From Escherichia coli (lineage in GTDB: Bacteria > Pseudomonadota > Gammaproteobacteria > Enterobacterales > Enterobacteriaceae): 64,000 bases of DNA. The position numbers and the translations under genes are program-made. This document shows positions 11,046 through 52,484 of this stretch, piece by piece. The stretch is from NCBI RefSeq assembly GCF_013315695.1, contig NZ_CP054353.1; one strand, given 5' to 3'. Under the pieces are notes generated by a model. The model saw only the letters and a program-made list of their open reading frames with translations, did not search any database and was not told where the DNA came from. The first letter of the stretch is position 1, and every line of letters begins with the position of its first letter.

Positions 11046-11321
11046 CTAGCGATAAATATCCGCGCTGGCGTGCATATTGCCGTTACTCCCCGGTTCCCGC
11101 ATTAGAATTACGTGGTAGTACGTTGCGCCCTGCGCATCTGTCTCTTCATTTAATGCCTGACGTGCTTCGCTTTCAGTGGCGAAATTATGATTGATATAAA
11201 TCACGCCTAAGCTCTGTACGTCGTCCATATTTCTGGACTGGTGGTTATTAATTTCAATGGCTGCCCATGTATTTGCACTTAGCAAAAGCACAGCCAGAAG
11301 GGCTAAAACACGACTGAACAT
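11046..11321 (-). CDS. yjfY: YjfY, DUF1471 small secreted protein
   Basis: 91 aa, MFSRVLALLAVLLLSANTWAAIEINN..., signal peptide. Confidence 0.8.
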   Translation of the reverse strand: MFSRVLALLAVLLLSANTWAAIEINNHQSRNMDDVQSLGVIYINHNFATESEARQALNEETDAQGATYYHVILMREPGSNGNMHASADIYR

Positions 11322-11629
11322 AGATACCTCCTCGACGGCTGACTTTGTGTGCTCTCCTCTGTGATGATCTTCTGATTTAATTTTAATCAATGATAAAGAA
11401 GTTGATGGTGACCATTTCTGATGCAGTTGTTCGAAAAAACACTGTGACGGAATGTGATGAACTTCAAATCAGGGAGTTAGTTCTTTTGAGCGAAAGATGA
11501 GATTTATTTGTCGGCTGGCCTTGAGTTTAGCGGGGCATACAAGTACTATAACGCGTCATTTTTCAGCCGACCTTTAACACGTTCCTTGCCTCCCCGGGAT
11601 TCGGCTGACCCAGACAGGAGGCTGAATAA

Positions 11630-26986: not shown

Positions 26987-27541
26987 TTATTTGAGCAACT
27001 TTTGCAGCAGGTCCATCACTTGCTGCACCTCTTCCTGTGTGAGCGCCCCGTCTTTGGCCCATTGCACGCGACCATCCTTATCCAGCACCACTACAGCGGA
27101 ACTTTCTTCATCCAGCTGCCAGGCACCGCGCGCGACGCCATTGCTATCGACAATAAACTGCGACCAGGGATAAAGCTTTTTATTACTCTCCAGACTGCTG
27201 CGCACAAACATCCCTGAACCCGGAATCGCGTCGTCGGTGTTAACAATAGTGGTGGTCTGGTAACGATCGTGCGGTAACTTCGCTGATTTAATCGCTTCAA
27301 TCAGCGTTGCGTTTTTCTCTTTTGCAGAGGTGCGACCAGCAATATGTTGCAGTACTCGCACTTTTCCCACTAACTGCGCGCTGTTCCAGGTTTTGTAGCT
27401 AAACTGATCTTTATCAAGCACCAACTCGCCCCGATCGGTAATGCCAATCGGCGGCACTCGCTGACCGGTTTCGAACTGATGTGCGGAAGCCATCATCGGC
27501 AACAGCAGGCAGGTGAGTGCCAGAATCTTGCGTAGGGTCAT
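26987..27541 (-). CDS. ytfJ: YtfJ, periplasmic protein (thioredoxin-like)
   Basis: 184 aa, MTLRKILALTCLLLPMMASAHQFETGQRV..., signal peptide. Confidence 0.8.
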   Translation of the reverse strand: MTLRKILALTCLLLPMMASAHQFETGQRVPPIGITDRGELVLDKDQFSYKTWNSAQLVGKVRVLQHIAGRTSAKEKNATLIEAIKSAKLPHDRYQTTTIVNTDDAIPGSGMFVRSSLESNKKLYPWSQFIVDSNGVARGAWQLDEESSAVVVLDKDGRVQWAKDGALTQEEVQQVMDLLQKLLK

Positions 27542-38812: not shown

Positions 38813-40315
38813 ATGACGACCGACCAACACCAGGAGATCCTCCGCACCGAAGGATTAAGTAAATTTTTCCCCGGCGTCAAAGCGTTAGACAACGTTGATT
38901 TCAGCCTGCGCCGTGGCGAAATCATGGCGCTGCTTGGTGAAAACGGGGCGGGAAAATCAACGCTAATCAAAGCATTAACTGGTGTATACCACGCCGATCG
39001 CGGCACCATCTGGCTGGAAGGCCAGGCTATCTCACCGAAAAATACCGCCCATGCACAACAACTCGGTATCGGCACCGTCTATCAGGAAGTCAACCTGCTA
39101 CCCAATATGTCGGTTGCTGATAATCTATTCATAGGTCGCGAACCCAAACGTTTCGGCCTTCTACGCCGTAAAGAGATGGAAAAGCGCGCCACCGAACTGA
39201 TGGCATCTTACGGTTTCTCCCTCGACGTGCGCGAACCGCTTAACCGTTTTTCGGTGGCGATGCAGCAAATCGTCGCCATTTGCCGGGCTATCGATCTCTC
39301 CGCCAAAGTGCTGATCCTCGATGAACCCACCGCCAGCCTCGACACCCAGGAAGTGGAGCTATTATTTGGCCTGATGCGTCAGTTGCGCGATCGCGGCGTC
39401 AGCCTGATCTTTGTCACTCACTTTCTCGATCAGGTCTATCAGGTCAGCGATCGGATCACCGTCTTACGCAACGGCAGTTTCGTAGGCTGTCGGGAAACGC
39501 GCGAGCTACCGCAGATCGAACTGGTAAAAATGATGCTGGGGCGCGAGCTGGATACCCACGCGCTACAGCGTGCCGGGCGAACATTGTTGAGCGACAAACC
39601 CGTTGCCGCGTTCAAAAATTACGGCAAAAAAGGAACGATAGCACCGTTTGATCTCGAAGTGCGCCCCGGCGAGATCGTCGGTCTGGCTGGCTTGCTGGGA
39701 TCCGGACGTACCGAAACCGCCGAAGTGATCTTCGGTATCAAACCTGCTGACAGCGGCACGGCGTTGATCAAAGGCAAACCGCAAACCCTGCGATCGCCAC
39801 ATCAGGCTTCAGTACTGGGCATCGGATTCTGCCCGGAAGACAGGAAAACCGATGGCATCATCGCCGCTGCCTCGGTGCGGGAAAATATCATCCTCGCTCT
39901 CCAGGCCCAGCGCGGCTGGCTACGACCCATTTCCCGCAAAGAGCAGCAAGAGATTGCCGAACGCTTTATCCGCCAGCTTGGCATTCGCACACCTTCAACT
40001 GAACAACCGATTGAATTTCTCTCCGGTGGCAATCAGCAAAAAGTGCTGCTTTCACGTTGGCTACTGACCCGACCGCAATTTCTGATCCTTGATGAGCCAA
40101 CCCGTGGCATTGATGTTGGTGCCCACGCCGAGATCATCCGCCTGATTGAAACGCTGTGTGCTGACGGTCTGGCGCTGCTGGTGATCTCCTCCGAACTGGA
40201 AGAGCTGGTGGGCTATGCCGACCGGGTGATCATCATGCGCGATCGCAAACAGGTGGCGGAGATCCCGCTGGCACAGCTTTCCGTTCCGGCGATCATGAAC
40301 GCCATTGCGGCGTAA
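38813..40315 (+). CDS. ytfR: YtfR, ABC transporter ATPase (duplicated ATP-binding cassette)
   Basis: 500 aa, two Walker A motifs (GENGAGKST and GLLGSGRTE) and LSGGNQQK signature. Confidence 0.9.
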   Translation: MTTDQHQEILRTEGLSKFFPGVKALDNVDFSLRRGEIMALLGENGAGKSTLIKALTGVYHADRGTIWLEGQAISPKNTAHAQQLGIGTVYQEVNLLPNMSVADNLFIGREPKRFGLLRRKEMEKRATELMASYGFSLDVREPLNRFSVAMQQIVAICRAIDLSAKVLILDEPTASLDTQEVELLFGLMRQLRDRGVSLIFVTHFLDQVYQVSDRITVLRNGSFVGCRETRELPQIELVKMMLGRELDTHALQRAGRTLLSDKPVAAFKNYGKKGTIAPFDLEVRPGEIVGLAGLLGSGRTETAEVIFGIKPADSGTALIKGKPQTLRSPHQASVLGIGFCPEDRKTDGIIAAASVRENIILALQAQRGWLRPISRKEQQEIAERFIRQLGIRTPSTEQPIEFLSGGNQQKVLLSRWLLTRPQFLILDEPTRGIDVGAHAEIIRLIETLCADGLALLVISSELEELVGYADRVIIMRDRKQVAEIPLAQLSVPAIMNAIAA

Positions 40316-43539: not shown

Positions 43540-44913
43540 ATGCGCATTCATATTTTAGGAATTTGTGGCACGTTTATGGGCGGTCTGGCGATGCTGGCGC
43601 GCCAGTTAGGCCATGAAGTAACGGGTTCGGACGCCAATGTGTATCCGCCGATGAGCACCTTACTTGAGAAGCAAGGCATTGAACTGATTCAGGGTTACGA
43701 TGCCAGCCAGCTCGAGCCGCAGCCGGATCTGGTGATTATTGGCAACGCCATGACCCGTGGAAATCCGTGTGTGGAAGCGGTACTGGAAAAAAACATCCCT
43801 TATATGTCAGGTCCACAGTGGCTGCACGATTTTGTGCTGCGCGACCGCTGGGTGCTGGCCGTTGCCGGTACACACGGCAAAACCACCACCGCGGGAATGG
43901 CGACCTGGATTCTGGAACAGTGTGGTTACAAACCGGGATTTGTGATCGGCGGTGTGCCGGGGAACTTTGAGGTTTCGGCGCGTCTGGGCGAAAGCGACTT
44001 CTTTGTTATCGAAGCGGATGAGTACGACTGCGCCTTCTTCGACAAACGCTCTAAATTTGTCCATTACTGCCCGCGTACGCTGATCCTCAACAACCTTGAG
44101 TTCGATCACGCCGATATCTTTGACGACCTGAAAGCGATCCAGAAACAGTTCCACCATCTGGTGCGTATCGTTCCGGGGCAGGGCCGTATTATCTGGCCGG
44201 AAAATGACATCAACCTGAAACAGACCATGGCGATGGGCTGCTGGAGCGAGCAGGAGCTGGTGGGTGAGCAGGGTCACTGGCAGGCGAAAAAGCTGACCAC
44301 CGATGCTTCCGAATGGGAAGTTTTGCTGGATGGCGAAAAAGTGGGCGAAGTGAAATGGTCGCTGGTAGGCGAACATAATATGCACAATGGCCTGATGGCG
44401 ATTGCAGCGGCTCGCCATGTTGGTGTAGCGCCGGCAGATGCCGCTAACGCGCTGGGTTCGTTTATTAATGCTCGTCGCCGTCTGGAGTTGCGTGGTGAAG
44501 CGAATGGCGTCACGGTATATGACGATTTTGCCCATCACCCGACGGCGATTCTGGCAACGCTGGCGGCGCTGCGTGGCAAAGTTGGTGGTACGGCGCGCAT
44601 TATTGCTGTGCTGGAACCGCGCTCGAATACCATGAAAATGGGGATCTGCAAAGACGATTTGGCACCTTCATTAGGTCGTGCCGATGAAGTCTTCCTGCTG
44701 CAACCGGCGCATATTCCGTGGCAGGTGGCAGAAGTGGCAGAAGCCTGCGTTCAGCCTGCACACTGGAGTGGCGATGTGGATACGCTGGCAGATATGGTGG
44801 TGAAAACCGCTCAGCCTGGCGACCATATTCTGGTGATGAGCAACGGCGGTTTTGGTGGGATCCATCAGAAACTGCTGGATGGTCTGGCGAAGAAGGCGGA
44901 AGCTGCGCAGTAA
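43540..44913 (+). CDS. mpl: Mpl, UDP-N-acetylmuramate:L-alanyl-gamma-D-glutamyl-meso-DAP ligase
   Basis: 457 aa, [31 protein letters not shown]..., Mur ligase motifs GTHGKTTT. Confidence 0.9.
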
Positions 44914-47240: not shown

Positions 47241-47630
<390 letters not shown>

Positions 47631-47674: not shown

Positions 47675-48139
47675 TCATCGCAAATGATGCACCACCTGAT
47701 TGCTGCTGCCGCGCCAGATCAGGGAAGGGTCTTTTAAATCCTGCACAAATTTGCCGTCGACCAGCACGTTAATCAAATCAACAACCTGCATTTGCGCAGC
47801 GTTGAGTTCGTCGAGTTTATAGCCTGTCCACACCCAGATGTCTTTACCCGGACACTCGGCGCGGATGCGTTTTACCAGTTTCAGAATATCCGGCACGTTT
47901 TGCGGATGCAGCGGATCGCCGCCGGAGAGGGAAATCCCCTGGCGTTTGATACGAGTGTCATTCAGATCTTTAATGATCTTGTCTTCCATTGCTTTGGTAA
48001 ATGGCTGACCAGAATTTACCCGCCATGTGCTTTTGTTATAGCAACCGGGGCATTCATGAACACACCCGGAGACAAACAGGGTGCAGCGAGTGCCGGGGCC
48101 GTTGACGATGTCGACAGGATAGTACTGATGATAATTCAT
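47675..48139 (-). CDS. nrdG: NrdG, anaerobic ribonucleotide reductase activating protein (radical SAM)
   Basis: 154 aa, MNYHQYYPVDIVNGPGTRCTLFVSGCVHECPGCYNKSTW... Confidence 0.9.
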   Translation of the reverse strand: MNYHQYYPVDIVNGPGTRCTLFVSGCVHECPGCYNKSTWRVNSGQPFTKAMEDKIIKDLNDTRIKRQGISLSGGDPLHPQNVPDILKLVKRIRAECPGKDIWVWTGYKLDELNAAQMQVVDLINVLVDGKFVQDLKDPSLIWRGSSNQVVHHLR

Positions 48140-48296: not shown

Positions 48297-50435
48297 TTAA
48301 CCTATCTGCCCATTCCCCAAATGTTTAACGCGGCGCTTAACTTCTTCCTGCTTACCAGCGTTAAACGGACGTGCATCCGGGCTACCTAAATATCCGCACA
48401 CGCGGCGAGTTACCGACACACGGGAGGCGTCATGGTTACCACATTTCGGGCAAGTGAAGCCTTTGCTGGTGCACTCGAACTCACCGGTAAAGCCACACTC
48501 GTAGCACTCATCAATCGGTGTATTGGTGCCGTAATACGGTACATGCTGATAGCTGTAATCCCAGACATCTTCCAGCGCTTTCAGGTTGTGCTGAATGTTT
48601 GGATACTCGCCGTAGCAAATGAAACCACCGTTCGCCAGCGGCGGGTAAGGCGCTTCAAAGTCGATCTTGTCGTACGGGTTCACCTTCTTCTCCACATCAA
48701 GGTGGAAACTGTTGGTGTAGTAACCTTTATCGGTCACGCCCGGCACCACGCCAAACTCAGCAGTATCGAGACGGCAGAAGCGGTCGCACAGGTTTTCACT
48801 CGGCGTGCTGTAGAGACTGAAACCATAACCCGTTTCTTCTTTCCACTGATCCACTGCCTGACGCAGACGTTCAACAATGGCGATACCTTTCGCGCGAAGC
48901 TGCTCGTTGTCGTAAACATGCTCGCCGCCGAACAGCGCGTTAATGGTTTCGTGGATGCCGATGTAACCCAGCGAAATAGACGCACGACCGTTTTTGAAGA
49001 TTTCAGAAACATCATCGTCAGCATTCAGACGTACGCCACAAGCACCTTCCATATAGAGGATCGGGGCGACGCGCGCTTTCACGCCTTCGAGACGAGCGAT
49101 ACGGGTCATCAGTGCCTTACGTGCCAGCACCAGACGTTCATCCAGCAGCTTCCAGAAGGTGGCTTCATCGCCTTTTGCTTCCAGAGCAATACGCGGCAGG
49201 TTCAGGCTGATCACGCCGAGGTTGTTACGACCATCGTGGATCTGCTCGCCGTTTTCATTTTCCCACACGCCGAGGAAGCTGCGGCAGCCCATCGGGGTTT
49301 TAAACGAACCGGTGACTTTCACTACCTGATCGTAGTTCAGGATATCCGGATACATGCGCTTGCTTGCGCACTCCAGCGCCAGCTGTTTGATGTCGTAGTT
49401 CGGATCGCCTTTTTTATGGTTCAGGCCATCGCGAATCGCAAACACCAGTTTCGGGAACACCGCAGTTTTACGGTTTTTACCGAGGCCTGCGATACGGTTA
49501 CGCAGGATCGATTCCTGAATCAGGCGCGATTCCCAGCTGGTGCCCAGACCAAAACCAAAGGTTACAAACGGCGTCTGACCGTTGGCGGTGTGCAGGGTGT
49601 TTACTTCGTACTCCAGCGACTGGAAGGCATCGTAGCACTCTTTGATGGTACGAGAGTTAGCGTAGCCTTCGGCGTCCGGGATGTTCCACTCTTCTGCGGT
49701 CTTGCGATGTTTGTTGTAGCTGGCGGTAACAAACGGCGCCAGCACTTCATCGATACGGTTAATGGTGGTGCCGCCATAAATATGGCTGGCGACCTGAGCA
49801 ATAATCTGCGCAGTTACCGCGGTTGCCGTAGAGATCGACTTCGGCGGTTCAATCTCGGCGTTCCCCATTTTAAAGCCCTGGGTCAGCATGCCTTTCAGGT
49901 CGATCAACATGCAGTTGAACATCGGGAAGAACGGCGAGTAATCGAGATCGTGATAGTGAATATCGCCACGCTCATGTGCCTGCACCACGTCACGCGGCAG
50001 CAGGTGCTGGCGTGCATAGTGTTTAGCCACGATCCCGGCCAGCAGGTCGCGCTGGGTTGGAATCACCTTGCTGTCTTTGTTGGCGTTTTCGTTGAGTAAC
50101 GAGGCGTTGGTCTGCTCGACCAGACCACGGATCTCCTGGTTCAGGCGACCGCGTTTTTCACGTTCAATGTCGCGATCGTGACGGTACTCGATGTAAGCAC
50201 GAGCCAGTTGTTTGTATGGACCCGACATCAGCTGGTTTTCAACTGCGGTCTGGATCTCGTTGATATCCACCTGGTTGCGGCCCTGCATCTGCTCGCTGAC
50301 AACCGCGGCAACAGTGGCGCAATAATCGGCATCATCGACTTCCGCTGCTTTAGCTGCACGCAGAATCGCTTCTTTGATGCGCTCTGATTTAAACGGCACT
50401 TTGCAGCCGTCTCGTTTCATCACATGCGGTGTCAT
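48297..50435 (-). CDS. nrdD: NrdD, anaerobic ribonucleoside-triphosphate reductase (class III)
   Basis: 712 aa, N-terminal ATP-cone, C-terminal glycyl-radical region and zinc-ribbon cysteines. Confidence 0.95.
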   Translation of the reverse strand: MTPHVMKRDGCKVPFKSERIKEAILRAAKAAEVDDADYCATVAAVVSEQMQGRNQVDINEIQTAVENQLMSGPYKQLARAYIEYRHDRDIEREKRGRLNQEIRGLVEQTNASLLNENANKDSKVIPTQRDLLAGIVAKHYARQHLLPRDVVQAHERGDIHYHDLDYSPFFPMFNCMLIDLKGMLTQGFKMGNAEIEPPKSISTATAVTAQIIAQVASHIYGGTTINRIDEVLAPFVTASYNKHRKTAEEWNIPDAEGYANSRTIKECYDAFQSLEYEVNTLHTANGQTPFVTFGFGLGTSWESRLIQESILRNRIAGLGKNRKTAVFPKLVFAIRDGLNHKKGDPNYDIKQLALECASKRMYPDILNYDQVVKVTGSFKTPMGCRSFLGVWENENGEQIHDGRNNLGVISLNLPRIALEAKGDEATFWKLLDERLVLARKALMTRIARLEGVKARVAPILYMEGACGVRLNADDDVSEIFKNGRASISLGYIGIHETINALFGGEHVYDNEQLRAKGIAIVERLRQAVDQWKEETGYGFSLYSTPSENLCDRFCRLDTAEFGVVPGVTDKGYYTNSFHLDVEKKVNPYDKIDFEAPYPPLANGGFICYGEYPNIQHNLKALEDVWDYSYQHVPYYGTNTPIDECYECGFTGEFECTSKGFTCPKCGNHDASRVSVTRRVCGYLGSPDARPFNAGKQEEVKRRVKHLGNGQIG

Positions 50436-50596
50436 GATCGCTCCATATTTTTAAGAACAGGTTATCCACAGAAATTGGGAAAGGCGTTTTCCGGTTTTTT
50501 CGTTTCGTTTTCCGGTGCTTTCCGCAATCGCCATCCGCTTATCCACAACGCCGCACCTTTTTCGTGGGGAGCTGTAGTAGCAATTATAGTCGATTA

Positions 50597-50643
50597 ATAC
50601 AACATATTGGGTTGGGACGCATTTTAAAGTCTATATATAGTGC
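50597..50643. promoter_or_regulatory. Two candidate NrdR boxes in the nrdDG promoter
   Basis: gtctatatatagtgc (50629-50643) fits the NrdR-box palindrome well; a weaker atacaacatattgg at 50597-50610, about 32 bp away. Confidence 0.45.
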
Positions 50644-50670
50644 TTTGCATCAAGGATGTTTTAACTTTTT

Positions 50671-50684
50671 TTGATGTAGCTCAA
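50671..50684. promoter_or_regulatory. FNR binding site upstream of nrdDG
   Basis: TTGATgtagCTCAA matches TTGAT-N4-ATCAA at 9 of 10 positions. Confidence 0.55.
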
Positions 50685-50787
50685 AGTAAAAAGCAGAGCG
50701 TACGGATGACGGGCGCTACAGCGTTATGTAAATTTTTTAATGAATTTGCTGGTTGAAAAATCAACAAAAACAACATGCTGACAGACA

Positions 50788-50816
50788 AAACCCCGGAATG
50801 ACCGGCATTACCGGGG
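50788..50816 (-). terminator. Rho-independent terminator of treBC
   Basis: ccccggtaatgccggtcattccgggg hairpin followed by tttt on the minus strand. Confidence 0.7.
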
Positions 50817-50828
50817 CTTAGGGAAGAT

Positions 50829-52484
50829 TTACTTCTGTAACCACCAGACAGCCTCAAAAGGCCGTAAATTCATGGCACAGGGTTGTGGTGAGGCTTCTTC
50901 GTAGTTATGCATCACAAGCTGCCAGTTGCCGCGCATTTGCCCTGGCTGCCAGGGTTGGATCTCACGGCTAAGGTTGGCAATGACCAGCAAGGTTTGCCCC
51001 TTCCATTCACGGCGATAGCACCACAATACAGGGCTGTTTGGCAGCAGATCCTGGTAATTGCCCCATGTCAGGATGGCTTCTTGCTTACGCAGTGCGATTA
51101 ACTTTTGGTAGGTGTAAAACACCGAGGAGTCATCGGCCAGCGCGGCTTCTACGTTGATTTGTTGATAGTTATCGCCCAGGCCAATCCACGGTTCGCCAGC
51201 CGTAAACCCGGCATTATCGCCGTTGCTCCATTGCATGGGCGTGCGACTGTTGTCACGGGATTTACTGGCGAGGATTGCCAATAACTCGTCGGCATCACGC
51301 CCATCGTTGCGCAGCTCGGCAAACATATTGAGGCTCTCCACGTCGCGATAGTCAGTAATGCGCGTGAAATGCGGGTTGGTCATGCCAATCTCTTCGCCCT
51401 GGTAGATATACGGCGTTCCCTGCATGCCATGCAGCACCATCGCCAGCATTTTTGCCGCAGGCACGCGGTATTCACCTTCATCACCAAAGCGAGAAACAAT
51501 GCGCGGCTGATCGTGGTTACACCAGAACAAGGCATTCCATGCTACGTTGTGCATTCCTTGTTGCCAGTGGCGGAACAATGTTTTCAACGCCACAAAGTCA
51601 GGTTTAGCCAGCGTCCATTTTTCACCACCGGGATAATCGACCTTCAGGTGATGAAAATTAAAGGTCATCGATAATTCACTGCCTGTCAGTGCCGCGTATC
51701 GCTGGCAATGCTCAAGGCTGGTGGAGGACATTTCACCTACGGTCATTAACCCGCGTGGCGTAAACACATCGCGGTTCATCTCGTGCAAAAACTCGTGTGC
51801 TCGTGGCCCGTCGGTGTAGAAGCGACGCCCGTCGCCGTCCAGGTCTTCAGGGAAACGCGGGTCTTTGGAGATCAGATTCACCACATCCAGGCGCAACCCG
51901 TCGACCCCACGATCGGCCCAGAACTCACAGACTTTTTTCAGCTCTGCGCGTACCGCTGGATTCTCCCAGTTGAGATCCGCCTGTTCTGGTGCAAAGAGAT
52001 GCAAATAGTACTGTTCGCTTTCCGCATGCCAGCGCCACGCACTACCGCCAAATTTTGAACGCCAGTTGTTCGGTGGCGTTTCTGGTTCGCCATCGCGCCA
52101 GATATAAAACTGGCGGTAAGGGCTTTCTTTGTTCAGCGCCTCGCGAAACCAGGCATGTTGGGTAGAGGTATGGTTAAACACCATATCGAGAATGATACGA
52201 ATCCCGCGCGATTTTGCCTGCGTCACCAGTTCGTCAAAATCGTCCAGCGTGCCGTAGGTGGGATCAATCGCCGTATAGTTCGCTACATCGTAACCGTTAT
52301 CGACCTGCGGAGAGACATAAAAGGGGGTTAGCCAGATGGCATCAACGCCCAGTTTATGCAGATAGTCCAGGCGTTGGATAACGCCACGTAAATCGCCGGT
52401 GCCGCTACCCGTGGTGTCCTGAAAACTCTTTGGATAAATCTGGTAGATAACGCCGTTTTGCCACCAGTGGGGAAGATTAGTCAT
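50829..52484 (-). CDS. treC: TreC, trehalose-6-phosphate hydrolase
   Basis: 551 aa from MTNLPHWWQNGVIYQIYPKSFQDTTGSGTGDLRGV... (GH13); track extends 49 codons upstream. Confidence 0.9.
   Translation of the reverse strand: MTNLPHWWQNGVIYQIYPKSFQDTTGSGTGDLRGVIQRLDYLHKLGVDAIWLTPFYVSPQVDNGYDVANYTAIDPTYGTLDDFDELVTQAKSRGIRIILDMVFNHTSTQHAWFREALNKESPYRQFYIWRDGEPETPPNNWRSKFGGSAWRWHAESEQYYLHLFAPEQADLNWENPAVRAELKKVCEFWADRGVDGLRLDVVNLISKDPRFPEDLDGDGRRFYTDGPRAHEFLHEMNRDVFTPRGLMTVGEMSSTSLEHCQRYAALTGSELSMTFNFHHLKVDYPGGEKWTLAKPDFVALKTLFRHWQQGMHNVAWNALFWCNHDQPRIVSRFGDEGEYRVPAAKMLAMVLHGMQGTPYIYQGEEIGMTNPHFTRITDYRDVESLNMFAELRNDGRDADELLAILASKSRDNSRTPMQWSNGDNAGFTAGEPWIGLGDNYQQINVEAALADDSSVFYTYQKLIALRKQEAILTWGNYQDLLPNSPVLWCYRREWKGQTLLVIANLSREIQPWQPGQMRGNWQLVMHNYEEASPQPCAMNLRPFEAVWWLQK

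What the first reader, a model, noticed from the sequence alone, without database searches (positions are those of the whole stretch)
50597..50684. nrdDG promoter: NrdR-box-like palindromes next to an FNR site
One strong FNR site (TTGATgtagCTCAA) and two NrdR-box-like palindromes about 32 bp apart fit the known dual control of the anaerobic reductase operon. This is expected biology rather than novelty; it is recorded because the second FNR site and second NrdR box are degenerate.
Basis: partly seen in the sequence, partly recalled or inferred. Interest (0 to 1): 0.15.

Follow-up and report, generated by a model that had tools for sequence, protein, structure and literature searches.

The report
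Known E. coli nrdDG promoter control region
This 88-base stretch is the well-studied control region of the E. coli anaerobic ribonucleotide reductase operon, with two binding sites for the oxygen sensor FNR and two for the nucleotide-sensing repressor NrdR; it is ordinary, already published biology.

Summary
The window is E. coli chromosome. Positions 50597-50684, read on the minus strand, are the core of the nrdDG promoter, between treC and nrdD.

It holds four sites:
- FNR site 2, TTGAGctacATCAA, 50684-50671
- FNR site 1, TTGATgcaaAGCAC, 50653-50640
- NrdR box 1, GCACTATATATAGACT, 50643-50628
- NrdR box 2, ACCCAATATGTTGTAT, 50612-50597

Each pair is 31 bp apart centre to centre, not about 32. 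All four sites are identical to K-12.

Published experiments used these sequences. The 57-bp NrdR probe (KD 160 nM) is identical to the window. The 54-bp FNR probe has identical sites and differs at two spacer bases. There is also an FNR ChIP-seq peak at nrdD.

Matrices trained without nrdD rank the two NrdR boxes first and second in the 64-kb window and FNR site 2 first. FNR site 1 is truly weak (rank 10, below every training site). NrdR box 2 is not degenerate.

The NrdR pair is conserved in 79 of 80 Enterobacterales nrdD promoters. One modest extra: in most other genera the proximal FNR site is the stronger one, the reverse of Escherichia.

Verdict: already known, low interest.

The parts
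50671..50684 (-). FNR site 2 (distal, published centre -64.5): TTGAGctacATCAA, one mismatch to TTGAT-N4-ATCAA
   Evidence: Best FNR matrix score in the window: 17.9 bits, rank 1 of 63,987, with nrdD left out of training. Listed with a ChIP-seq peak, PatSer 15.68, ln p -14.45, in PMC3688515 Table S6. Identical to K-12. Reported as necessary and sufficient for activation (Roca 2008, via PMC10425943).
50640..50653 (-). FNR site 1 (proximal, published centre -33.5): TTGATgcaaAGCAC, degenerate right half-site
   Evidence: 10.7 bits, rank 10 in the window, below the weakest training site. Exactly 31 bp from site 2; 0 of 300 shuffles give such a pair. The literature reports weaker binding and a boost to expression only when site 2 is occupied. 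At the same position 53 of 80 other Enterobacterales have TTGATGCAAATCAC at 15.6 bits.
50628..50643 (-). NrdR box 1: GCACTATATATAGACT (core CTATATATAG is a perfect palindrome). It overlaps FNR site 1 by 4 bp (50640-50643).
   Evidence: 14.3 bits, rank 2 in the window, with a matrix trained only on the nrdAB and nrdHIEF boxes. Lies inside the 57-bp probe bound by NrdR with KD 160 nM. Invariant in the sampled Escherichia variants. Conserved in the 80 loci.
50621..50626 (-). Probable -10 hexamer TAAAAT, in the 15-bp linker between the NrdR boxes
   Evidence: Inferred. The published FNR centres (-33.5 and -64.5) put +1 at about 50613, which places this hexamer at -13 to -8. TTA[A/G]AATGC is conserved across 30 genera. 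No consensus -35 is present, as expected for an activator-dependent promoter.
50613..50613 (-). Transcription start site, back-calculated from the published site positions
   Evidence: Inferred arithmetically from the FNR centres at 50646.5 and 50677.5 and the published -33.5 and -64.5. Not measured here.
50597..50612 (-). NrdR box 2: ACCCAATATGTTGTAT, about +2 to +17
   Evidence: 14.3 bits, rank 1 in the window. 31 bp from box 1 with a 15-bp linker, as stated for nrdDG in PMC12176259. Right half TTGTAT is nearly invariant across genera.
48297..50435 (-). nrdD coding sequence (anaerobic ribonucleoside-triphosphate reductase), the regulated gene
   Evidence: NCBIfam NF006732, 1220 bits against a cut-off of 657. 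RefSeq annotation of an identical region.
47675..48139 (-). nrdG coding sequence (activating radical-SAM enzyme), second gene of the operon
   Evidence: NCBIfam NF008335, 313 bits against a cut-off of 199. RefSeq annotation.
50451..50470 (+). DnaA double box in the nrdD leader: weak TTAAGAACA (50451-50459), then gg, then perfect TTATCCACA (50462-50470)
   Evidence: Same sequence as the double box listed under the DnaA ChIP-seq peak upstream of nrdD (62-fold coverage) in PMC11317965. The perfect box is conserved in nearly all of the 80 loci.
50539..50547 (+). Second perfect DnaA box TTATCCACA in the nrdD leader (about +67 to +75)
   Evidence: The only two perfect boxes in the 64-kb window are these two. 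Invariant in a 30-genus alignment whose flanks are fully diverged.

Best explanation
Window 50597-50684 (minus strand) is the core of the E. coli nrdDG promoter. It combines anaerobic activation by FNR with nucleotide-dependent repression by NrdR.

Activation. Without oxygen, [4Fe-4S]-FNR dimers bind the near-consensus distal site 2 (centre -64.5) and, more weakly, the degenerate proximal site 1 (centre -33.5). The two sites are three helical turns apart, so they sit on the same DNA face. The promoter has a -10 (TAAAAT) but no usable -35, so it needs FNR.

Repression. When dATP is high relative to ATP, an NrdR tetramer loaded with ATP plus dATP binds the two 16-bp boxes. These are also three turns apart and bracket the -10 hexamer, at roughly -30 to -15 and +2 to +17. 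Binding there should exclude RNA polymerase.

Interplay. NrdR box 1 overlaps FNR site 1 by 4 bp, so the two proteins probably compete there.

What is shown in the literature on these sites: FNR binding to both sites, their relative importance, FNR occupancy in vivo, and NrdR binding with its nucleotide requirement. The NrdR probe is identical to the window; the FNR probe carries two spacer differences.

What is inferred here: the exact start site, the assignment of the -10, polymerase occlusion, and FNR/NrdR competition.
For: Identity of the locus:
- nrdD, nrdG and treC are identified by NCBIfam and by RefSeq annotation.
- The region occurs once in 5425 of 5426 complete E. coli genomes.
- All four sites are identical to K-12.

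Matrices:
- The NrdR matrix, trained without nrdD, ranks the two boxes 1 and 2 of about 64,000 positions. The pair scores 28.6 bits against 5.8 for the next best, and 0 of 300 shuffles reach it.
- The FNR matrix from 62 ChIP-positive sites, nrdD excluded, ranks site 2 first at 17.9 bits. The pair at 31 bp is reached by 0 of 300 shuffles.

Published experiments:
- FNR sites at -64.5 and -33.5. [quoted passage not shown] SAXS shows both sites occupied (PMC10425943).
- FNR ChIP-seq peak at nrdD, and lower nrdD and nrdG expression without FNR (PMC3688515).
- NrdR binds the identical 57-bp fragment with KD 160 nM with ATP-dATP and 152 nM with ADP-dATP, and shows no binding with ATP alone (PMC12176259).
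- E. coli NrdR binds best with 15-18 bp spacers, giving about three turns between box centres (PMC12051234).

Conservation:
- 79 of 80 Enterobacterales loci carry an NrdR pair (both boxes at least 10 bits, 30-32 bp apart) just upstream of nrdD, with none elsewhere in 464 kb.
- 77 of 80 have the distal FNR site and 62 of 80 have both.
- The whole block is a continuous phylogenetic footprint.
Against: - FNR centred at -33.5 is not a standard activating position; class II sites sit at -41.5. The SAXS paper itself calls the activation mechanism 'a remaining mystery'.
- The start site was not measured here, and I could not read the primary mapping papers (Boston and Atlung 2003, Roca 2008, Torrents 2007 are not held).
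- FNR site 1 on its own is no better than 10 other positions in the window.
- In divergent Escherichia lineages site 1 is weaker still: TTAATGCAAAGCAC, 6.4 bits.
- Polymerase occlusion by NrdR and FNR/NrdR competition are inferences from geometry. Only an indirect argument exists, in Salmonella (PMC2892513).
Confidence: 0.95

Rival explanations
1. The palindromes are chance AT-rich matches near a promoter and bind nothing specific.
For: Single-site statistics are weak. The NrdR core pattern occurs 4 times in the window against 3.9 expected. FNR-like sites with up to 2 mismatches are common: 55 in the window. 45 of 300 shuffles hold a single NrdR-matrix hit of at least 14.26 bits.
Against: Neither pair at exact 31-bp spacing is matched in 300 shuffles. 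The NrdR pair is found in 79 of 80 orthologous promoters and nowhere else in 464 kb. Direct binding data exist for these sequences.
Confidence: 0.01
2. Only the distal FNR site works in E. coli. The proximal 'site 1' is a decayed relic whose sequence is kept for other reasons, such as the flank of NrdR box 1 or the -35 region.
For: Site 1 scores 10.7 bits, below all 62 training sites, and is absent from the published thresholded scan. It is further degraded to 6.4 bits in divergent Escherichia lineages. Its last base is the invariant C4 of NrdR box 1. Site 2 alone is reported as necessary and sufficient.
Against: [quoted passage not shown] SAXS and UV stoichiometry fit two FNR dimers on the 54-mer, though at very high protein concentration. 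The site is strong and conserved in 53 of 80 other genera.
Confidence: 0.12
3. A second promoter, or the true one, uses the perfect TATAAT at 50588-50583 with a start near 50575-50578. The FNR sites would then lie near -70.5 and -101.5, which are class-I-like positions, and NrdR box 2 would cover the -35 region.
For: TATAAT is a perfect -10 hexamer. The element ATCGnCTAYnAT is conserved across 30 genera. The published -33.5 position is mechanistically awkward.
Against: The published start site gives -33.5 and -64.5. There is no -35-like hexamer at the right spacing. In divergent Escherichia lineages the hexamer becomes TATACT or TAAACT. The TTA[A/G]AATGC element between the boxes is at least as well conserved.
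Confidence: 0.08

Closest known systems
E. coli K-12 nrdDG promoter (FNR sites at -64.5 and -33.5; NrdR boxes 1 and 2)
   Same: It is the same locus. All four sites, the linker with the -10 and the whole leader are identical. The 57-bp NrdR probe of PMC12176259 matches window 50648-50592 exactly.
   Different: Four single-base differences in the 393-bp intergenic region (window 50777, 50724, 50664, 50662). Two lie in the spacer between the FNR sites: K-12 GCTCAAAC against window GTTAAAAC. None lies inside a site.
NrdR operators of E. coli nrdHIEF and nrdAB (boxes 1 and 2)
   Same: Two 16-bp boxes with core C-W-A-N-A-T-N-T-W-G and a 15-bp linker, overlapping the polymerase-binding region. The reported affinities are similar: 138, 160 and 113 nM.
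   Different: [quoted passage not shown]
nrdDG promoters of Salmonella, Citrobacter, Enterobacter and other Enterobacteriaceae
   Same: Same order and spacing of FNR2, FNR1, NrdR1, -10 and NrdR2, and the same two DnaA boxes in the leader.
   Different: Site strengths are reversed. In 55 of 80 loci the proximal FNR site (TTGATGCAAATCAC, 15.6 bits) outscores the distal one (TTGTYCTnnATCAA, about 13-16 bits). Escherichia has a near-consensus distal site (17.9 bits) and a decayed proximal one (10.7 bits).
Class I / class II FNR- and CRP-dependent promoters
   Same: An FNR dimer bound to TTGAT-N4-ATCAA upstream of a promoter without a -35, and tandem sites on the same helical face.
   Different: The published centres of -33.5 and -64.5 are not the canonical -41.5 and -61.5. 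How activation occurs from these positions is unresolved in the literature.

Membership tests
NrdR operator (pair of NrdR boxes) | Two 16-bp palindromic boxes that match the NrdR box motif | tested here: met
   A matrix from the four independent E. coli boxes (nrdAB 1 and 2, nrdHIEF 1 and 2) scores box 2 at 14.3 bits and box 1 at 14.3 bits. These are ranks 1 and 2 in the 64-kb window.
NrdR operator (pair of NrdR boxes) | Spacer of 15-16 bp, giving an integer number of helical turns between box centres | tested here: met
   The linker 50613-50627 is 15 bp, so the centres are 31 bp apart. This matches the requirement described in PMC12051234 and PMC12176259.
NrdR operator (pair of NrdR boxes) | [quoted passage not shown] | tested here: met
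   nrdD and nrdG are identified downstream. The boxes bracket the conserved TAAAAT hexamer. The overlap with polymerase rests on the published start site.
NrdR operator (pair of NrdR boxes) | Conserved in orthologous promoters | tested here: met
   79 of 80 Enterobacterales loci have a pair with both boxes at least 10 bits and 30-32 bp apart upstream of nrdD. None occurs elsewhere in 463,828 bp.
NrdR operator (pair of NrdR boxes) | Bound by NrdR loaded with ATP plus dATP | not testable with these tools
   Published for a 57-bp probe identical to window 50648-50592: KD 160 +/- 37 nM, with no binding with ATP alone (PMC12176259).
NrdR operator (pair of NrdR boxes) | nrdR gene present in the same genome | not tested
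   nrdR lies outside the 64-kb window. That E. coli encodes NrdR is stated in the literature.
FNR-activated promoter with tandem FNR sites | Match to TTGAT-N4-ATCAA, distal site | tested here: met
   One mismatch. 17.9 bits, rank 1 in the window, with nrdD left out of the matrix. The published PatSer score of 15.68 is well past the published threshold.
FNR-activated promoter with tandem FNR sites | Match to TTGAT-N4-ATCAA, proximal site | tested here: inconclusive
   Two mismatches, 10.7 bits, rank 10, below the weakest training site at 11.8. It is supported only by its exact 31-bp phasing (0 of 300 shuffles), by a strong orthologous site in 53 of 80 loci, and by published gel shifts.
FNR-activated promoter with tandem FNR sites | FNR occupancy in vivo and FNR-dependent expression | not testable with these tools
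   Published: a ChIP-seq peak at nrdD, and nrdD and nrdG expression ratios of 0.36 and 0.27 in the FNR expression table (PMC3688515).
FNR-activated promoter with tandem FNR sites | Site centred at a canonical activating position (about -41.5 or -61.5) | tested here: inconclusive
   The start site cannot be read from sequence. The published centres are -33.5 and -64.5, which are non-canonical. A conserved TATAAT-like element 25 bp downstream would give about -70.5 and -101.5 if it were used.
DnaA-box cluster of the DnaA regulon (adjacent feature, outside the finding) | Closely spaced pair of 9-mers matching TTATCCACA under a DnaA ChIP-seq peak | tested here: met
   Perfect boxes at 50462-50470 and 50539-50547, the only two in the window. 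The published double box tTTAAGAACAggTTATCCACAg is present at 50450-50471 (boxes 50451-50459 and 50462-50470). Binding itself comes from the literature.

The most novel reading that the evidence does not exclude
The distribution of FNR site strength in this promoter has been swapped in Escherichia. Most Enterobacteriaceae have a good proximal site (TTGATGCAAATCAC) and a weaker distal site (TTGTYCT..ATCAA). E. coli and E. albertii instead have a near-consensus distal site and a proximal site decayed by a T-to-G change at position 1 of NrdR box 1.

If this matters functionally, Escherichia would have shifted activation to the distal site. That would reduce direct FNR/NrdR competition at the overlap and change how oxygen and dNTP signals are combined.

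Separately, one of the proximal site's two mismatches is the invariant C4 of the NrdR box, so that part of its 'degeneracy' is imposed by the overlap of the two sites.
Probability: 0.3. Interest if true: 0.25.

Novelty: already known. Interest (0 to 1): 0.08.

Why it matters
It adds little to biology. The dual FNR/NrdR control of nrdDG has been characterised since 2003-2008 and refined structurally in 2022-2025. The value of this check is as calibration: a reader without tools placed all four sites to the base and judged correctly that the region is ordinary.

The comparative results are small additions that could guide a focused promoter-swap experiment. They are the reversed FNR site strengths in Escherichia, the overlap constraint on the proximal site, and the deep conservation of the leader DnaA boxes. 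None opens a new question.

Tried and rejected
- Primary papers: I tried to read Torrents 2007 (PMC1951866) and Boston and Atlung 2003 (PMC180968). Neither is held, and Roca 2008 is not in PMC. The site positions are therefore quoted second-hand from PMC10425943.
- Single-site consensus counts do not by themselves exceed chance. They were replaced by matrix scoring and pair tests.
- The sigma-70 consensus scan found no promoter on the nrdD strand and only a weak one on the opposite strand. This is uninformative for an activator-dependent promoter.
- The Rfam scan of 50300-50900 found nothing near any gathering score, so a riboswitch or sRNA reading of the long leader is rejected.
- The direct repeat ACCGGAAAACG x2 in the leader was considered as a regulatory element. 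It was rejected as lineage-specific: it is not conserved outside E. coli and E. albertii.
- A CRP reading of the FNR-like sites was rejected by inspection. There are no TGTGA/TCACA half-sites with a 6-bp spacer, and FNR ChIP-seq and binding data exist.
- A literature search for a mapped nrdD start site gave no sequence-level data.

Full report
WHAT IS THERE

The window is E. coli chromosome. ORFs at 48297-50435 (-), 47675-48139 (-) and 50829-52484 (-) are NrdD, NrdG and TreC. Their NCBIfam equivalog or subfamily scores are 1220, 313 and 1222 bits, all far above the cut-offs. A RefSeq record with an identical intergenic region is annotated the same way.

The finding lies in the 393-bp treC-nrdD intergenic region, 50436-50828. 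This region occurs once in 5425 of 5426 complete E. coli genomes. It differs from K-12 MG1655 at only four positions (50777, 50724, 50664, 50662), and none lies inside a binding site.

ANATOMY ON THE nrdD SENSE (MINUS) STRAND

- FNR site 2, TTGAGctacATCAA, 50684-50671, centre 50677.5.
- FNR site 1, TTGATgcaaAGCAC, 50653-50640, centre 50646.5.
- NrdR box 1, GCACTATATATAGACT, 50643-50628, centre 50635.5.
- A 15-bp linker containing TAAAAT, 50626-50621.
- NrdR box 2, ACCCAATATGTTGTAT, 50612-50597, centre 50604.5.

The successive centre-to-centre distances are 31, 11 and 31 bp, so all four sites lie on roughly the same helical face. FNR site 1 and NrdR box 1 share 4 bp (GCAC).

The published FNR centres of -64.5 and -33.5 (Roca 2008, as summarised in PMC10425943) fit the 31-bp spacing exactly. 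They put +1 at about 50613. On that numbering TAAAAT lies at -13 to -8, box 1 at about -30 to -15, and box 2 at about +2 to +17.

The finding's coordinates, 50597-50684, are exactly the outer edges of box 2 and FNR site 2. The only numerical slip is 'about 32 bp', which should be 31.

IS IT MORE THAN CHANCE?

Single sites are not convincing on their own.
- TTGAT-N4-ATCAA with up to 2 mismatches occurs 55 times in the window, against 33.6 expected.
- The NrdR core CWANATNTWG occurs 4 times, against 3.9 expected.

I therefore built matrices that exclude nrdD.

The NrdR matrix comes from the four other E. coli boxes (nrdAB boxes 1 and 2, nrdHIEF boxes 1 and 2), read from the probe sequences printed in PMC12176259.
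- It ranks nrdD box 2 (14.3 bits) and box 1 (14.3 bits) first and second of about 64,000 positions.
- The 31-bp pair sums to 28.6 bits. The next best pair in the window sums to 5.8.
- 0 of 300 dinucleotide shuffles reach it.

The FNR matrix comes from the 62 ChIP-positive sites of Myers et al. 2013, Table S6, with nrdD removed.
- It ranks site 2 first at 17.9 bits.
- It ranks site 1 tenth at 10.7 bits, below the weakest training site at 11.8.
- The pair at 31 bp scores 28.6 bits, and 0 of 300 shuffles reach it.

As a cross-check, five of this matrix's top seven hits elsewhere in the window (11191, 11377, 27404, 39764, 44096) are sites that Myers et al. list as predicted but without a ChIP peak. 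Within this window only the nrdD site is bound in vivo.

The 'degenerate second NrdR box' is not supported. Box 2 is a less perfect palindrome, but it scores as well as box 1.

EXPERIMENTAL STATUS (LITERATURE)

- FNR ChIP-seq gives a peak at nrdD, with TTGATGTAGCTCAA scored at PatSer 15.68 and ln p -14.45. nrdD and nrdG expression ratios of 0.36 and 0.27 are listed in the FNR expression table (PMC3688515).
- FNR binds site 2 more tightly than site 1. [quoted passage not shown] Site 1 adds only when site 2 is occupied. Anoxic SAXS fits two FNR dimers on a 54-mer (PMC10425943). That 54-mer differs from the window only at the two spacer SNPs.
- NrdR loaded with ATP-dATP or ADP-dATP binds a 57-bp probe with KD 160 or 152 nM, and ATP alone gives no binding (PMC12176259). 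This probe is identical to window 50648-50592.
- E. coli NrdR binds best to boxes with 15-18 bp spacers, about three turns between centres (PMC12051234).
- In Salmonella, mutating the boxes changes nrdDG reporter expression, and the authors already noted the overlap of box 1 with an FNR site (PMC2892513).

CONSERVATION

One scan of GTDB species genomes with the first 300 residues of NrdD returned 80 Enterobacterales loci.

- An NrdR pair (both boxes at least 10 bits, 30-32 bp apart) lies just upstream of nrdD in 79 of 80 loci. No such pair occurs anywhere else in 463,828 bp.
- The distal FNR site is present at 10 bits or more in 77 of 80 loci. Both FNR sites are present in 62 of 80.
- A 30-genus alignment shows one continuous footprint covering FNR2, FNR1, NrdR1, TTA[A/G]AATGC, NrdR2 and ATCGnCTAYnAT. 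After it the leader is fully diverged, except for two invariant TGTGGATAA 9-mers and the Shine-Dalgarno region.
- Within Escherichia, the sampled variants change only the N4 of site 2, the inter-site spacer, the linker and the region downstream of box 2. Both NrdR boxes are invariant.
- The 88-bp core is identical in about 1,786 genomes. Nearly all the others are 95-99% identical, that is 1-4 differences; five fall in the 90-95% band and the listed example is 93.2%, about 6 differences.

A SMALL ADDITION

In 55 of 80 loci the proximal FNR site (usually TTGATGCAAATCAC, 15.6 bits) outscores the distal one (TTGTYCTnnATCAA, about 13-16 bits). E. coli and E. albertii show the opposite: distal 17.9 bits and proximal 10.7 bits.

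The proximal site has two mismatches with different origins.
- The final C is the invariant C at position 4 of NrdR box 1. It is a constraint from the overlap of the two sites and is shared by all genera.
- The T-to-G change (ATCAC to AGCAC) falls on position 1 of the NrdR box, where the other E. coli boxes also differ. It is largely specific to Escherichia.

This reads as turnover of site strength within a fixed architecture. I have no functional evidence for it.

MECHANISM

Activation is by FNR from two in-phase sites at a promoter that lacks a -35. Repression is by an NrdR tetramer that clamps the DNA on both sides of the -10. Competition at the 4-bp overlap is likely.

Binding and its genetic consequences are published. 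The occlusion and competition steps are inferred from geometry.

One unresolved point is already flagged in the literature: -33.5 is not a canonical activating position. A perfect TATAAT at 50588-50583, conserved as CTAYNAT, would put the FNR sites near -70.5 and -101.5 if it were used. However, it has no -35 partner, and it decays to TATACT or TAAACT in divergent Escherichia lineages. I give this low weight.

VERDICT

The feature is already known. Interest is low.

Noticed in passing
window 50451-50470 and 50539-50547 (+ strand), in the nrdD 5' leader: The only two perfect DnaA boxes (TTATCCACA) in the 64-kb window both sit in the nrdD leader, one next to a weak box (TTAAGAACA). They are invariant across about 70 Enterobacterales loci whose surrounding leader is fully diverged. 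DnaA ChIP-seq binding here was published in 2024 (PMC11317965), but its regulatory effect is untested.
   Followed up: yes
L072-L082, about 100-170 bp upstream of the nrdD ATG (e.g. L078 2406-2414): In Yersinia, Hafnia, Edwardsiella, Dickeya and Serratia a TTATCCACA box in the opposite orientation directly abuts NrdR box 2. It is followed by an ATCCACA repeat and a downstream TGTGGATAA. These loci have a single FNR-like site 40 bp upstream of the box 1 centre, which is a different promoter layout from E. coli.
   Followed up: partly
window 50583-50594 (- strand: ATCGACTATAAT): A perfect TATAAT lies 25 bp downstream of the inferred start site. It is conserved as ATCGnCTAYnAT across 30 genera but changes to TATACT or TAAACT in divergent Escherichia lineages. 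It could be a second -10 element or another binding site.
   Followed up: partly
window 50662 and 50664: The spacer between the two FNR sites is a polymorphic spot. The window has GTTAAAAC, K-12 GCTCAAAC, BL21 and W2-5 GTTCAAAC, and E. albertii CCTCAAAC. In K-12 the GCTCAA forms an inverted repeat with the TTGAGC of site 2; the window allele breaks it.
   Followed up: partly
window 50485-50516 (- strand): Direct repeat ACCGGAAAACG x2, 21 bp apart, between the two DnaA boxes in the leader. It is present only in E. coli and E. albertii and is not conserved in other genera.
   Followed up: partly
window 50788-50819 (- strand): A G+C-rich hairpin followed by UUUU lies 10 nt after the treC stop codon. 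Its free energy is -17.1 kcal/mol, z-score -2.96. It is probably the treBC intrinsic terminator, insulating the nrdDG promoter from upstream transcription in the same direction.
   Followed up: partly
window 11191-11204, 11377-11390, 27404-27417, 39764-39777, 44096-44109: These are high-scoring FNR-matrix hits. They coincide with sites that Myers et al. 2013 list as predicted but without an FNR ChIP-seq peak (within yjfY, yjfY/rpsF, within ytfJ, within ytfR, within mpl), most of them under Fis or H-NS signal.
   Followed up: partly
window 47244-47630 (+): A 128-aa ORF lies where K-12 annotates cybC (cytochrome b562) as a pseudogene and strain E2865 has a truncated cybC next to IS66 genes. By ORF length alone, the window strain appears to carry an intact cybC. 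In addition, the interval between window 11 kb and 50 kb is about 1.2 kb longer than in K-12, judging from coordinate offsets.
   Followed up: no
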